From NCBI RefSeq assembly GCF_009914755.1, contig NC_060929.1: DNA of 64,000 nucleotides. One strand, given 5' to 3'. The notes below the pieces were generated by a model. The model worked only from the letters and a program-made list of their open reading frames with translations. It searched no databases and was not told where the DNA came from. Numbering within the stretch: the stretch's first letter is position 1; every line of letters begins with the position of its first letter. The translations under genes and the position numbers were made by a program. Shown here piece by piece: positions 13,584 through 45,040 of the stretch. The DNA comes from the human T2T-CHM13v2.0 reference genome, Homo sapiens.

Positions 13584-14490
13584 GGTGGGAGGAGCCAAGA
13601 TGGCCAAATAGGAACAGCTCCTGTCTACAGCTCCCAGCGTGAGCGACGCAGAAGACGGGTGATTTCTGCATTTCCATCTGAGGTACCGGGTTCATCTCAC
13701 TTGGGAGTGCCAGACAGTGGGCGCAGGTCAGTGGGTGCGCGCACCGTGCGTGAGCCGAAGCAGGGCGAGGCATTGCCTCACTTGGGAAGCGCAAGGGGTC
13801 AGGGAGTTCCCTTTCCAAGTCAAAGAAAGGGGTGACAGACGCACTTGGAAAATCAGGTCACTCCCACCCGAATACTGCCCTTTTCCGACTGGCTTAAAAA
13901 ATGGCGCACCACGAGATTATATCCCGCACCTGGCTTGGAGGGTCCTACGCCCATGGAGTCTCACTGATTGCTAGCACAGCAGTCTGAGATCAAACTGCAA
14001 GGCGGCAGCGAGGCTGGGGGAGGGGCGCCCACCATTGCCCAGGCTTGCTTAGGTAAACAAAGCAGCCGGGAAGCTCCAACTGGGTGGAGCCCACCACAGC
14101 TCAAGGAGGCCTGCCTGCCTCTGTAGGCTCCACCTCTGGGGGCAGGGCACAGACAAACAAAAAGACAGCAGTAACCTCTGCAGACTTAAATGTCCCTGTC
14201 TGACAGCTTTGAAGAGAGCAGTGGTTCTCCCAGCACGCAGCTGGAGATCTGAGAACGGGCAGACTGCCTCCTCAAGTGGGTCCCTGACCCCTGACCCCCG
14301 AGCAGCCTAACTGGGAGGCACCCCCCAGCAGGGGCACACTGACACCTCACACGGCAGGGTACTCCAACAGACCTGCAGCTGAGGGTCCTCTCTGTTAGAA
14401 GGAAAACTAACAAATGGAAAGGACATCCACACCAAAAACCCATCTGTACATCACCATCATCAAAGACCAAAAGTAGATAAAACCACAAAG
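13584..14490 (+). promoter_or_regulatory. L1 5' UTR internal sense promoter and antisense promoter
   Basis: YY1 site CAAGATGGCC at 13596-13605; CpG-rich; this is an established function of the L1 5' UTR. Confidence 0.8.
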
Positions 14491-15507
14491 ATGGGGAAAA
14501 AACAGAGCAGAAAAACTGGAAACTCTAAAAAGCAGAGTGCCTCTCCTCCTCCAAAGGAATGCAGTTCCTCACCAGCAACAGAACAAAGCTGGATGGAGAA
14601 TGACTTTGACGAGCTGAGAGAAGCAGGCTTCAGACGATCAAATTACTCTGAGCTACGGGAGGACATTCAAACCAAAGGCAAAAAAGTTGAAAACTTTGAA
14701 AAAAATTTAGAAGAATGTATAACTAGAATAACCAATACAGAGAAGTGCTTAAAGGAGCTGATGGAGCTGAAAACCAAGGCTCGAGAACTACGTGAAGAAT
14801 GCAGAAGCCTCAGGAGCCGATGTGATCAACTGGAAGAAAGGGTATCAGCAATGGAAGATGAAATGAATGAAATGAAGCAAGAAGGGAAGGTTAGAGAAAA
14901 AAGAATAAAAAGAAATGAGCAAAGCCTCCAAGAAATATGGGACTATGTGAAAAGACCAAATCTACGTCTGATTGGTGTACCTGAAAGTGATGAGGAGAAT
15001 GGAACCAAGTTGGAAAACACTCTGCAGGATATTATCCAGGAGAACTTCCCCAATCTAGCAAGGCAGGCCAACATTCAGATTCAGGAAATACAGAGAATGT
15101 CACAAAGATACTCCTCGAGAAGAGCAACTCCAAGACACATAATTGTCAGATTCACCAAAGTTGAAATGAAGGAAAAAATGTTAAGGGCAGCCAGAGAGAA
15201 AGGTCGGGTTACCCTCAAAGGGAAGCCCATCAGACTAACAGCGGATCTCTCGGCAGAAACCCTACAAGCCAGAAGAGAGTGGAGGCCAATATTCAACATT
15301 CTTAAAGAAAAGAATTTTCAACCCAGAATTTCATATGCAGCCAAACTAAGCTTCATAAGTGAAGGAGAAATAAAATACTTTATAGACAAGCAAATGCTGA
15401 GAGATTTTGTCACCACCAGGCCTGCCTTACAAGAGCTCCTGAAGGAAGCGCTAAACATGGAAAGGAACAACTGGTACCAGCCACTGCAAAATCATGCCAA
15501 AATGTAA
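14491..15507 (+). CDS. L1 ORF1p (RNA-binding chaperone), intact 338-aa frame
   Basis: MGKKQSRKTGNSK...NHAKM at canonical length. REKG and ARR motifs are kept; YPAKLS is changed to YAAKLS. Confidence 0.9.
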   Translation: MGKKQSRKTGNSKKQSASPPPKECSSSPATEQSWMENDFDELREAGFRRSNYSELREDIQTKGKKVENFEKNLEECITRITNTEKCLKELMELKTKARELREECRSLRSRCDQLEERVSAMEDEMNEMKQEGKVREKRIKRNEQSLQEIWDYVKRPNLRLIGVPESDEENGTKLENTLQDIIQENFPNLARQANIQIQEIQRMSQRYSSRRATPRHIIVRFTKVEMKEKMLRAAREKGRVTLKGKPIRLTADLSAETLQARREWRPIFNILKEKNFQPRISYAAKLSFISEGEIKYFIDKQMLRDFVTTRPALQELLKEALNMERNNWYQPLQNHAKM

Positions 15508-15570
15508 AGACCATCGAGACTAGGAAGAAACTGCATCAATTAACCAGCAAAAGAACCAGCTAACATCATA

Positions 15571-42894: not shown

Positions 42895-42957
42895 TATGAA
42901 GTTAGCTGGTTATTTTGCTCCTTAGTTGATGCAGTTTCTTCCTAGCCTTGATGGTCT

Positions 42958-43956
42958 TTAGAATTTGGTATGTTTTTGCAGTGGCTGGTACCAGTTGTTC
43001 CTTTCCATGTTTAGTGTTTCCTTCAGGAGCTCTTTTAGGGCAGGCCTAGTGGTGAAAAAATCTCTCAGCATTTGCTTGTCTATAAAGGATTTTATTTCTC
43101 CTTCATTTATGAAGCTTAGTTTGGCTGGATATGAGATTCTGGGTTGAAAATTCTTTTCTTTAAGAATGTTGAATATTGGTCCCCACTCTCTTCTGGCTTG
43201 TAGAGTTTCTGCCAAGAGATCAGCTGTTAGTCTGATGGGCTCCCCTTTGTGAGTAACCCAACCTTTCTCTCTGGCTGCCCTTAACATTTTTTCCTTCATT
43301 TCAACTTTGGTGAATCTGACAATTATGTGTCTTGGAGTTACCCTTCTTGAGGAGTATCTTTGTGGCATTCTCTGTATTTCCTGAATTTGAATGTTGGCCT
43401 GCCTTGCTAGATTGGGGAAATTCTCCTGGATAATATCCTGCAGAGTGTTTTCCAACTTGGTTCCATTCTCCCCGTCACTTTCAGGTACACCAATCAGATG
43501 TGGATTTGATCTTTTCACATAGTCCCATATTTCTTGGAGGCTTTGTTCATTTCCTTTTAGTCTTTTTTCTCTAAACTTCTCTTCACGCTTCATTTCATTC
43601 ATCTTCCATCACTGATACCCTTTCTTCCAGTTGATTGCATCGGCTCCTGAGGCTTCTACATTCTTCACGTAGTTCTAGAGCCTTGGTTTTCAGCTCCATC
43701 AGCTCCTTTAAGCACTTCTCTGTAATGGTTATTCTAGTTATCCATTCATCTAATTTTTTTTCAAAGCTTTTAACTTCTTTGCCATTCGTTCGAATTTCCT
43801 CCTGTAGCTCAGAGTAGTTTGATTGTCTGAAGCCTTCTTCTCTCAACTCGTCAAAGTCATTCTCCATCCAGCTTTGTGAGGAGCTGTGTTTCTTTGGAGG
43901 AAGAGAGATGCTCTGATTTTTAGTTTCCAGTTTTTCTGCTCTGGTTTTTTTCCCAT
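42958..43956 (-). pseudogene. L1 #2 ORF1, frameshifted
   Basis: ATG at 43956; split into 43595-43867 and 42958-43602 by a small deletion near 43598, with further indels near the 5' end. Confidence 0.92.
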
Positions 43957-45040
43957 CTGCGTGGTTTTATTTACCTTTGGTCTTTGATGATGGTGGCGTA
44001 CAGATGGGTTTTTGGTGTGGATGTCCTTTCTGTTTGTTAGTTTTCCTTCTAACAGACAGGACCCTCAGCTGCAGGTCTGTTGGAGTTTGCTAGAGGTCCA
44101 CTCCAGACCCTGTTTGCCTGGGTATCTGCAGCAGTGGCTGCACAACAGCGGATATTGGTGAACCGCAGATGCTGCTGCCTGATGGTTCCTCTGGAAGTTT
44201 TGTCTCAGAGGAGTACCCGGCCATGTGAGGTGTCAGTCCACCCCTACTGGGGGGTGCCTCCCAATTAGGGTACTTGGGGGTCAGGGCCCCGCTTGAGGAG
44301 GCAGTCTGCCCGATCTCAGATCTCAAGCTGCATGCTCAGAGAACCACTACTCTCTTCAAAGCTGTCAGAGAGGGACATTTAGGTCTGCAGAAGTTACTGC
44401 TGTCTTTTTGTTTATCTGTGCCCTGCCCCCAGATGTGGAGCCTACAGAGGCAGGCAGGCCTCCTTGAGCTGTGGTGGGCTCCACCCAGTTCGAGCTTCCA
44501 GGCCGCTTTGTTTACCTAATCAAACAACTAACTCAGCAATGGCGGGCTCCCCTCCCTTAGCCTCGCTGCCACCTTGCTGTTTGATCTCAGACTGCTGTGC
44601 TAGCAATGAGTGAGACTCTGTGGGTGTAGGACCCTCCGAGCCAGGTCCGGGATATAATCTGGTGTGCCATTTTTTTAAGCCCCTTGGAAAACGCAGTATT
44701 AGGGTGGGAGTGACTCAATTTTCCAGGTGCCATCTGTCACCGCTTTCTTTGACTAGGAAAGGGAATTCCTTGACCCCTTGTGTTTCCCGGGTGAAGCGAT
44801 GCCTCACCCTGCTTCTGCTCGTGCATGGTGCGCTGCACCCACTGTCCTGCATCTACGGTCTGGCACTCCCCAGTGAGATGAACCTGGTACCTCAGTTGGA
44901 AATGCAGAAATCACCCATCTTCTGTGTCACTCACGCTGGGAGCTGTAGACCGGAGCTGTTCCTATTCGGCCATCTTGGCTCCTCCCCCATAGCTAGTGGT
45001 TCAAGTGTTTTCTGTTTGATCCCCATTTTAAAGATTCCCA

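What the first reader, a model, noticed from the sequence alone, without database searches (positions are those of the whole stretch)
13584..44988. Two inverted L1s of different subfamilies share private mutations, including the same frameshift: gene conversion or recurrent inversion of a ~17-kb segment
Seen: L1 #1 (+) and L1 #2 (-) face each other across ~17 kb (19630-36839). They share five changes at homologous ORF2 positions. (a) A 1-bp deletion CAGAGGTAC>CAGAGTAC at ~17014 and ~39453; both ORF translations end [17 protein letters not shown], while L1 #3 keeps TACCTCTGG / FYQRYKEEL at ~52281. (b) GAAGTTGAGTCT at 16907/39560. (c) DKIHQPF at 17392/39076. (d) CTAGAGGAAAAC at 18499/37968. (e) MAIIQKSG at 18931/37541. 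Established, from memory: the consensus alleles are GAATCT, DKIQQPF, GAAGAAAAC and IIKKSG, and none is a CpG site. The 5' UTRs (907 vs 1032 nt) and 3' UTRs mark different subfamilies, so a common parent is unlikely. Inference: the copies exchanged sequence after insertion in several tracts over >1.9 kb. Each L1 still has matching TSDs and a continuous host element, so this haplotype is in ancestral orientation (conversion or an even number of inversions). The spacer may be a cryptic, recurrent inversion polymorphism.
Basis: partly seen in the sequence, partly recalled or inferred. Interest (0 to 1): 0.8.

Follow-up and report, generated by a model that had tools for sequence, protein, structure and literature searches.

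The report
Neighbouring inverted L1s share rare mutations
Two dead L1 retrotransposons of different ages, facing each other about 17 kb apart on human chromosome 5, share more rare mutations than unlinked copies do, most likely through old, very short patches of DNA copying between them; this is a known kind of event, and nothing shows that the segment between them flips.

Summary
Both full-length L1s (A 13584-19617 +; B 36852-44988 -, carrying an SVA insertion) have the five shared alleles at the stated places, and I found a sixth (17737 T). Each L1 has its own intact target-site duplication. A sits in a younger L1PA clade and B in an older one.

Two shared alleles are very rare genome-wide: the 1-bp deletion (9 places against 8733 intact) and A>T at 17392 (5 against 3693). 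Three are not private (58, 169 and 193 places).

No other copy was found carrying two of the alleles. A and B share 5 alleles rare in both clades over 2.8 kb; 288 unlinked young x old pairs share at most 3.

However, A-B identity (94.8%) is not raised, the longest identical run is 93 bp (no more than chance), and neither copy shows a mosaic tract.

Best reading, about 0.55: old, short or patchy gene conversion between the two. Chance parallel mutation is about 0.27. A recurrent inversion has no support here.

Side finding: allele 18931 C clusters strikingly on chromosome 5.

The parts
13584..19617 (+). L1 'A': full-length younger L1PA copy. 5' UTR 907 nt, ORF1 14491-15507 intact, ORF2 broken in several places, poly-A at the end.
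   Evidence: The tree places it in the youngest clade. 46 unshared private changes in 3896 bp.
13572..13583 (+). 5' target-site duplication of A (AAAAGTTATGTT); the second copy is at 19618-19629.
36852..44988 (-). L1 'B': full-length older L1PA copy. 5' UTR 1032 nt, ORF1 and ORF2 broken, interrupted by an SVA.
   Evidence: The tree places it in an older tier. 86 unshared private changes in 3896 bp.
36840..36851 (-). 3' target-site duplication of B (TGGTTCAAGTGT on the + strand); the second copy is at 44997-45008.
40779..42788 (-). SVA element inserted in B between ORF1 and ORF2. It has a poly-A, a SINE-R part, a GC-rich VNTR, an Alu-like part and a hexamer repeat, with its own TSD GGTCTTGACTCT at 40767 and 42789.
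   Evidence: The element name comes from its anatomy as I recall it; no repeat library was available.
17010..17017 (+). Allele a: a 1-bp deletion that shifts the ORF2 frame. Homologous site in B: 39450-39457.
   Evidence: 9 places genome-wide against 8733 intact.
16907..16907 (+). Allele b: A>G. In B it lies within 39557-39568.
   Evidence: 58 places genome-wide.
17392..17392 (+). Allele c: A>T (Q>H). In B at about 39076.
   Evidence: 5 places against 3693 ancestral.
17737..17737 (+). B also differs at the next base.
   Evidence: 193 places for the pattern that allows either state at the next base.
18499..18499 (+). Allele d: A>G. In B within 37962-37973.
   Evidence: 169 places. 82 of the first 100 listed lie on the older background.
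18931..18931 (+). Allele e: A>C (K>Q). In B at about 37541. It is a sub-lineage allele, not evidence of exchange.
19630..36839 (.). Spacer of about 17.2 kb between the two L1s. No annotated gene, and no homology between the flanks of A and B beyond the L1s.
   Evidence: A plus 180-bp flanks matched only L1 sequence; hub annotation

Best explanation
A and B are two independent L1 insertions. B is the older one; A is younger and landed about 17 kb away in the opposite orientation. After A's insertion the two copies exchanged a few very short stretches of sequence by non-allelic (ectopic) gene conversion.

The inferred mechanism is that a break in one copy was repaired using the inverted neighbour as template. 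The patches were tens of bases long, or came from one heteroduplex repaired in patches. Each patch carried the donor's own mutations into the other copy. This is how a frameshifting 1-bp deletion and a rare A>T change came to sit in both.

The events must be old or very short, because later private mutations now lie within 1-70 bp of every shared site. Direction looks mixed, though this is weak. The deletion and allele d probably went from B to A, and allele b from A to B.

Shown: the excess of shared rare alleles, the privacy of the combination, the independent origins and the ancestral orientation. Inferred: the conversion mechanism, its timing and its direction. Allele e is left out of the argument.
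For: 1. Very rare alleles in both copies. The deletion is at 9 places genome-wide against 8733 intact. 17392 T is at 5 against 3693.

2. The combination is private. No place other than A and B appears in two of the complete lists for a, b and c. A gapped pattern for d and e together finds only A and B.

3. Empirical null. Over 15720-18555, A and B share 5 alleles rare in both clades. Among 288 unlinked young x old pairs the counts are 0 in 184, 1 in 74, 2 in 24, 3 in 6, and none higher. A against 16 old copies reaches at most 1. Eighteen young copies against B reach at most 3. The Poisson tail for 5 or more at means of 0.43 to 0.83 is 9e-5 to 2e-3. Among 946 pairs of any kind, 8 share 4 or more rare non-CpG changes, and 3 (A-B among them) share both a rare indel and a rare transversion.

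4. Not common descent. A and B are not sisters in the tree. They differ at 36 of 51 clade-diagnostic sites: one is a swap and one is a third state in B.

5. Weak local signs. In A, the old-type G at 17026 (1 of 18 young copies) lies 12 bp from the deletion, and the old-type A at 16942 (0 of 18) lies 72 bp from it. In B, the young-type T at 16877 lies 30 bp from allele b. Identical runs around the six shared sites average 53 bp against 36 for random sites (P=0.045).

6. Known elsewhere (passages read). Inverted L1 pairs are recombination substrates in humans: an L1PA3 pair flanks the 20.8-kb inversion HsInv0341 (PMC3961182), and 22 balanced inversions are flanked by L1 pairs (preprint 10.1101/2021.12.20.472354).
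Against: - No conversion tract is visible. The longest A-B identical run is 93 bp, no longer than chance (null mean maximum 104; P=0.67). The longest run of concordant polymorphic sites is not unusual (P=0.24).
- A-B identity over 3.1 kb (94.8%) is not higher than B's identity to unlinked copies (up to 95.06%).
- A's number of old-type alleles (7 of 35 at the lax threshold, 2 of 14 at the strict one) lies within the range of unlinked young copies (1-11 and 0-5).
- Two of the 'wrong-clade' neighbours of shared alleles (18469 and 18924) are plain CpG transitions. With them counted, 4 of 5 shared sites had such a neighbour within 35 bp, against a background of 0.26 (P=0.017). Without them the support is weak.
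- Three shared alleles are common enough (about 1-5%) to coincide by chance, so the case rests mainly on two sites.
- The pair was picked out because it looked unusual. I cannot quantify the selection across the many windows scanned.
- One haplotype only: no ape orthologues and no other human haplotypes could be examined.
Confidence: 0.55

Rival explanations
1. Chance parallel mutation. A and B mutated independently to the same states at five or six sites, and the pair was noticed because it is an outlier among very many L1 pairs.
For: - Four of the six alleles are individually common: b 58 places, d 169, 17737 T 193, e 185 plus 94.
- The deletion can arise from three different intact variants, each by loss of one base of a doubled letter. 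It recurs in unlinked copies: 7 places, plus L052.
- No tract, no raised identity and no mosaic.
- Some unlinked pairs share as many 'rare' alleles when all pairs are pooled: 8 of 946 share 4 or more.
Against: - None of 288 unlinked cross-clade pairs shares more than 3 such alleles, against 5 here.
- The two rarest alleles each have a frequency of about 0.08% (7 of about 8740 and 3 of about 3696 once A and B are set aside).
- A has only 46 unshared private changes in the region through which to coincide.
- The high-sharing control pairs are mostly close relatives in the tree. A and B are not.
Confidence: 0.27
2. A regional process other than pairwise exchange. L1 copies in the same chromosomal neighbourhood tend to carry the same alleles, through regionally biased sub-lineages, spread among many neighbouring copies, or local duplication. 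A and B share alleles for that reason.
For: - Allele e is carried by L1s of both backgrounds and is strongly clustered. Chromosome 5 holds 54 of the 100 listed young-background places (120 in all) and 20 of 92 old-background places. C5:96-102.1 Mb holds 22 and 12 of them. Eight further carriers lie within 43.19-46.14 Mb around the window.
- Allele b shows 4 close pairs (about 310 kb or less) besides A-B among its 58 places.
Against: - Alleles a and c have no other carrier on chromosome 5.
- Allele d shows no clustering.
- No other copy combines the alleles.
- This reading explains e, and perhaps b, but not the two decisive alleles.
Confidence: 0.1
3. Footprint of repeated inversion of the spacer by recombination between A and B (an even number of flips). 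Alternatively, an assembly artefact mixing the two copies.
For: - The architecture fits: full-length inverted repeats 17 kb apart. L1 pairs do mediate inversions.
- One diagnostic site, 16677, is swapped between A and B.
Against: - Crossovers would swap segments reciprocally, not make alleles shared. Only 1 of 51 diagnostic sites is swapped.
- Both TSD pairs are intact.
- The 5' regions keep each copy's own type.
- The longest perfect match is 93 bp at 94% identity. L1 pairs that flank known inversions have a median identity of 97.2% (passage).
- An artefact is unlikely at 6% divergence with different flanks. This is inference; no reads were seen.
Confidence: 0.05

Closest known systems
Non-allelic (ectopic) gene conversion between dispersed retrotransposon copies. 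Described for neighbouring Alu elements and for L1; I recall this literature and read none of it here.
   Same: Independent insertions close together on one chromosome share derived alleles that their subfamilies lack. Transfer is non-reciprocal, covers short stretches, and involves no change in copy number or orientation.
   Different: No contiguous converted tract can be shown. The shared sites are isolated among private differences, and the two copies are 6% diverged. The case is statistical (5 against at most 3 in 288 controls), not structural.
Inversions mediated by inverted L1 pairs through non-allelic homologous recombination. Examples: HsInv0341 (L1PA3 pair, 6.2-kb repeats, 20.8 kb inverted; PMC3961182, passage) and the 22 L1-flanked balanced inversions of preprint 10.1101/2021.12.20.472354 (passage).
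   Same: Two long inverted L1s flank a segment of about 17 kb. The size and architecture are like those of known cases.
   Different: Only the ancestral orientation is seen. There are no chimeric L1s, identity is 94% (known cases have a median of 97.2%), and the longest perfect match is 93 bp. This locus was not among the chromosome 5 rows shown from PMC3961182. Six 5-digit coordinate prefixes had no hit in 5 supplementary files of PMC9675761; those coordinates rest on my own rough conversion to GRCh38.
Arm-to-arm gene conversion in large palindromes, such as those of the human Y chromosome (recalled, not read here).
   Same: Inverted repeats on one chromatid act as templates for each other.
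   Different: Palindrome arms are kept above 99.9% identical by frequent, long conversion. Here any exchange was rare and tiny, and it did not homogenise the copies.

Membership tests
Ectopic gene conversion between paralogous repeats | Excess of shared derived alleles that neither copy's own lineage carries | tested here: met
   5 alleles rare in both clades, against at most 3 in 288 unlinked cross-clade pairs. Alleles a and c are each at about 0.08% genome-wide. The combination is found only in A and B.
Ectopic gene conversion between paralogous repeats | Contiguous tracts of identity, or a mosaic phylogeny along the sequence (GENECONV-type signal) | tested here: not met
   The longest identical run is 93 bp (P=0.67) and the longest concordant run of polymorphic sites gives P=0.24. 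The painting at 51 diagnostic sites shows no run of donor-type alleles.
Ectopic gene conversion between paralogous repeats | The copies arose independently, so sharing is not inherited | tested here: met
   Separate TSDs, different clades, 5' UTR 87% and ORF1 91% identical.
Ectopic gene conversion between paralogous repeats | Donor-type flanking alleles are transferred together with the shared private allele | tested here: inconclusive
   17026 G and 16942 A in A, and 16877 T in B, fit this. 18469 and 18924 are CpG transitions. 4 of 5 shared sites have a neighbour within 35 bp against a background of 0.26 (P=0.017), but this weakens once the CpG sites are dropped.
Ectopic gene conversion between paralogous repeats | Timing: the allele appears in the second copy after both copies exist (outgroup species) | not testable with these tools
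   No ape genomes or other human haplotypes are held.
Recurrent NAHR inversion polymorphism | Long inverted repeats flanking the segment | tested here: met
   A (+) and B (-) are both full length, with a 17.2-kb spacer.
Recurrent NAHR inversion polymorphism | Chimeric repeats, swapped TSDs or reciprocal segment exchange | tested here: not met
   TSD pairs intact. 1 of 51 diagnostic sites is swapped. The 5' parts keep their own type.
Recurrent NAHR inversion polymorphism | Both orientations observed among haplotypes | not testable with these tools
   A single haplotype is held.
Common L1 sub-lineage (shared by descent) | The alleles co-occur in unlinked copies | tested here: not met
   For a, b and c the lists are complete and only A and B recur. 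Alleles d and e together occur only in A and B. Caveat: the d and e lists are cut at 100 of 169 and 100 of 185. Co-occurrence of a or c with d or e in copies on later chromosomes was therefore not checked directly.
Common L1 sub-lineage (shared by descent) | A single allele is present as a lineage marker on each copy's own background | tested here: met
   True only of allele e: 92 places on the old background, B included, and 120 on the young background, A included.

The most novel reading that the evidence does not exclude
Alleles of L1 copies are correlated regionally across subfamilies. The ORF2 variant at 18931 (A>C, K>Q) sits on both older and younger L1 backgrounds. It is concentrated 70-fold or more in the same few megabases: 34 carriers in chr5:96-102.1 Mb, and at least 45% of the young-background carriers on chromosome 5. 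The A-B pair may be one small instance of a general process in which neighbouring L1s pass alleles to each other by ectopic conversion (possibly GC-biased), or in which an L1 lineage re-inserts preferentially near its source. Either would run against the usual picture of L1 copies as independent, genome-wide draws.
Probability: 0.2. Interest if true: 0.7.

Novelty: new member of a known kind. Interest (0 to 1): 0.3.

Why it matters
If the exchange is real, it is one more documented case of dead L1 copies a few tens of kb apart acting as repair templates for each other. That matters for dating L1 copies by divergence, for subfamily assignment, and for judging which L1 pairs can recombine.

It does not reveal a new mechanism. 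It gives no evidence of a structural polymorphism near NNT.

The unplanned result may matter more: one L1 allele clusters on chromosome 5 across two subfamily backgrounds. If it survives a proper census, it bears on whether L1 insertion or post-insertion evolution is locally biased.

Tried and rejected
- Global homogenisation: rejected. A-B identity is 94.8%, while B against unlinked copies reaches up to 95.06%.
- A single long conversion tract over 16907-18931: rejected. A and B differ at most diagnostic sites inside it.
- Common sub-lineage for a-d: rejected.
- Allele e as evidence of exchange: dropped after searches showed it on both backgrounds.
- A seventh candidate, 15383 T in ORF1, was absent from 11 comparators. 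It was dropped because it occurs at 522 places.
- 'Wrong-clade' alleles at 18469 and 18924 as tract markers: discounted as CpG transitions.
- A larger inverted duplication containing both L1s: rejected. The flanks of A match nothing near B.
- Subfamily names (L1PA3, L1PA4 and so on) could not be assigned because no repeat library was available. I use 'young' and 'old' clades from my own tree of 50 rows.
Controls for 18560-19615 therefore number only about 29 copies, and the nature of the e cluster stays open.
- Literature on this locus. Nothing was found in the passages shown from PMC3961182 or from the preprint 10.1101/2021.12.20.472354 (its supplements are closed). Nothing was found in 5 supplementary files of PMC9675761. 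The Cell version, PMC9563103, is not held.
- Paper searches listed no paper on chromosome-biased L1 sub-lineages. I read the titles and abstract starts only.
- Earlier findings of this scan were not open to the session.
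Full report
WHAT IS THERE

The window is human chromosome 5, just downstream of NNT (hub annotation). L1 'A' (13584-19617, + strand) is full length. It has a 907-nt 5' UTR, an open ORF1 (14491-15507) and a broken ORF2. L1 'B' (36852-44988, - strand) is also full length. It has a 1032-nt 5' UTR (ORF1 ATG at 43956), and both of its ORFs are broken.

B is interrupted between ORF1 and ORF2 by a 2-kb element at 40779-42788. This element has the anatomy of an SVA and its own 12-bp target-site duplication. The name SVA is my recollection of that anatomy.

Each L1 has its own target-site duplication. For A it is AAAAGTTATGTT at 13572 and 19618. For B it is TGGTTCAAGTGT (+ strand) at 36840 and 44997. 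The flanks of A have no match near B. The two are therefore independent insertions, and this haplotype has the ancestral orientation.

A and B are 94.1% identical over ORF2 and the 3' UTR (3918 bp), 91.3% over ORF1 and 87% over the 5' UTR. L1 #3 is only about 80% identical to A.

THE OBSERVATION

Both copies read [17 protein letters not shown] and then a stop.

I aligned A and B with 63 stretches of other L1 copies fetched from the same genome. Thirty were picked by similarity to 101 bp of A. Seven were picked because they carry the deletion. Twenty-nine were picked by similarity to B's ORF2 and 3' UTR. The rows for A, B and one duplicate locus were removed.

DIFFERENT SUBFAMILIES

A maximum-likelihood tree of 50 rows over 15720-18555 has the ladder shape usual for primate L1. 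A lies in the youngest clade and B in an older tier, and they are not sisters.

I compared 18 'young' copies with 16 'old' copies. At the 51 sites that separate them, A carries the young state at 43 and B carries the old state at 43. They agree at 13 sites, and one site (16677) is swapped.

HOW RARE ARE THE ALLELES?

Exact-pattern counts over the whole assembly, with A and B included, are:
- Deletion (a): 9 places, against 8733 for the three intact variants.
- 17392 T (c): 5 places, against 3693 ancestral.
- 16907 G (b): 58 places.
- 18499 G (d): 169 places. Of the first 100 of 137 matches to a longer pattern, 82 lie on the old background.
- 17737 T: 193 places.
- 18931 C (e): 185 places, plus 94 with the neighbouring CpG intact.

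So only a and c are truly rare, at about 0.08% each.

The lists for a, b and c are complete, and only A and B appear in more than one of them. A gapped pattern for d and e together finds A and B alone. The d and e lists are cut at 100 rows. For that reason I could not check directly whether a or c carriers on later chromosomes also carry d or e.

IS THE SHARING MORE THAN CHANCE?

I used the fetched copies as an empirical null. Over 15720-18555, A and B share 5 alleles that are rare (10% or less) in both clades.

| Comparison | Pairs | Shared rare alleles |
|---|---|---|
| A with B | 1 | 5 |
| Unlinked young x old | 288 | 0 in 184, 1 in 74, 2 in 24, 3 in 6, none higher |
| A with old copies | 16 | at most 1 (sum 4) |
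| Young copies with B | 18 | at most 3 (sum 15) |

Poisson tails for 5 or more at means of 0.43 to 0.83 are 9e-5 to 2e-3.

Pooling all 946 pairs among 44 copies, 8 pairs share 4 or more rare non-CpG changes. Three pairs, A-B among them, share both a rare indel and a rare transversion. Most of the other high pairs are close relatives in the tree.

A has only 46 further private changes in 3896 bp, and B has 86. The excess is real by this test. It rests mainly on alleles a and c, and I cannot correct for how the pair came to be selected.

IS THERE A TRACT?

No. The evidence is as follows:
- Over 3.1 kb, A is 94.8% identical to B. B is 93.0-95.06% identical to unlinked copies, and A is 93.8-96.9% identical to them.
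- The longest identical A-B run is 93 bp. Random placement of the 215 differences gives a mean maximum of 104 (P=0.67).
- The longest run of concordant polymorphic sites gives P=0.24.
- The identical runs that hold the six shared sites are 91, 71, 29, 36, 35 and 57 bp, a mean of 53 against 36 for random sites (P=0.045).

Every shared site has a private difference within 1-70 bp.

In the neighbourhood of the deletion, A carries two old-type states: 17026 G (1 of 18 young copies) and 16942 A (0 of 18). B carries a young-type state at 16877, next to allele b. Between these, 16931, 16952 and 16973 keep each copy's own type.

A's total of old-type states is within the range of unlinked young copies. 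Several of those, such as L046, show much clearer mosaics.

Two further 'wrong-type' neighbours, 18469 and 18924, are CpG transitions and carry little weight.

ALLELE E

This allele changed my reading. It occurs on the old background at 92 places, including B and three neighbours at C5:43.66, 43.72 and 46.13 Mb. It occurs on the young background at 120 places, including A and three neighbours at 44.84-44.93 Mb. Each copy may therefore simply have inherited it, so I remove it from the case for exchange.

Its distribution is odd in its own right:
- Chromosome 5 holds 54 of the 100 listed young-background places and 20 of the 92 old-background places.
- C5:96-102.1 Mb alone holds 22 and 12 of them.
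- The X chromosome holds 19 of the 92 old-background places.

Alleles d and 17737 T, counted with the same tool, show no such bias. Chromosome 5 holds 15 and 16 of their first 100 rows, which span chromosomes 1-9 and 1-7.

Twenty carriers read over 300 bp are ordinary, little-diverged L1 ORF2 with no further marker. Segmental duplication, locally biased insertion and regional conversion all stay open.

MECHANISM

The best-supported account is non-allelic gene conversion between the two inverted neighbours. The patches were tens of bases long, or came from one heteroduplex repaired patchily. The events were old enough that later mutations surround each patch.

Converting some 10% of the length would leave overall identity and the diagnostic painting almost unchanged, which is what is seen. 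That step is inference.

The direction is suggested only weakly. The deletion travels with an old-type state in A, and d is mostly an old-background allele, which points from B to A. Allele b sits beside a young-type state in B, which points from A to B.

Chance parallel mutation remains a serious rival, because no structural signature backs the statistics.

Crossing-over, and hence inversion, would swap alleles rather than make them shared. Only one swapped site exists.

With at most 93 bp of perfect match at 94% identity, the pair is now a poor substrate. As I recall, efficient mammalian homologous recombination needs roughly 200 bp or more of uninterrupted identity. L1 pairs at known inversions have a median identity of 97.2% (passage).

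WHAT IS KNOWN

Gene conversion among dispersed Alu and L1 copies is described; I recall this literature and did not read it here. Inversions between inverted L1 pairs are also described: HsInv0341, an L1PA3 pair with 20.8 kb inverted (PMC3961182, passage), and 22 L1-flanked balanced inversions (preprint 10.1101/2021.12.20.472354, passage).

I found no record of an inversion at this locus in what I could read. The main catalogues' supplements were closed or not held, so this is not a statement that none is known.

VERDICT

At best this is a new instance of a known kind of event. The chromosome 5 clustering of allele e is the item most worth a follow-up.

Noticed in passing
window 18931 (A) and about 37541 (B); genome places listed: The L1 ORF2 variant A>C (K>Q) is carried by at least 279 copies on both older and younger L1 backgrounds. 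It is strongly clustered. Chromosome 5 holds 54 of the 100 listed young-background carriers (120 in all). C5:96-102.1 Mb holds 34 carriers of both backgrounds. The X chromosome holds 19 of 92 old-background carriers. Other alleles counted with the same tool are evenly spread. This is unexplained.
   Followed up: partly
window 40779-42788 (-): An SVA-like element with its own 12-bp TSD is inserted inside L1 B. Its GC-rich VNTR (about 41300-42350) coincides with the RefSeq 'enhancer' feature at 41393-42064 and explains the long ORFs on both strands there.
   Followed up: partly
G000:C5:99955222-99955418 (-) and C5:99957141-99957337 (+); also C10:36039589 with 36194154, and C23:139366928 with 139846288: Neighbouring e-carrying L1 segments in inverted orientation share the same extra rare variants in the printed 80 bases. 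These look like local inverted duplications or exchange between neighbours, and so form other pairs of the kind studied here.
   Followed up: no
L046 (G000:C12:10230087-10236662) and L049 (G000:C8:59879224-59885651): These unlinked L1 copies show clean runs of the 'wrong' clade's alleles at diagnostic sites. L046, for example, has six consecutive old-type states inside a young-type copy. They are clearer mosaics than anything in A or B.
   Followed up: no
places of allele b: C3:65023673 with 65167188, C11:48933631 with 48941206, C12:59731134 with 59926787, C13:79071206 with 79381743: Among the 58 carriers of 16907 G there are four close pairs (about 310 kb or less) besides A-B. By my rough estimate fewer than one would be expected. 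This hints that sharing of rare alleles by neighbouring L1s is not unique to this locus.
   Followed up: no
window 17010-17017 and the homologous codon in other copies: The codon hit by the deletion varies between L1 subfamilies: CAGAGGTAC, CAGAAGTAC or CAGAGTTAC (R, K or S). All three give the same product when one base of the doubled letter is lost, which raises the chance of recurrence.
   Followed up: partly
window 46832-55181 (-) and 2241-2762 (+): There is a third, much older L1, about 80% identical to A and fragmented. There is also a 3' L1 fragment about 90% identical to A's 3' UTR. Neither covers or shares the alleles in question, apart from the intact codon at 52280.
   Followed up: partly
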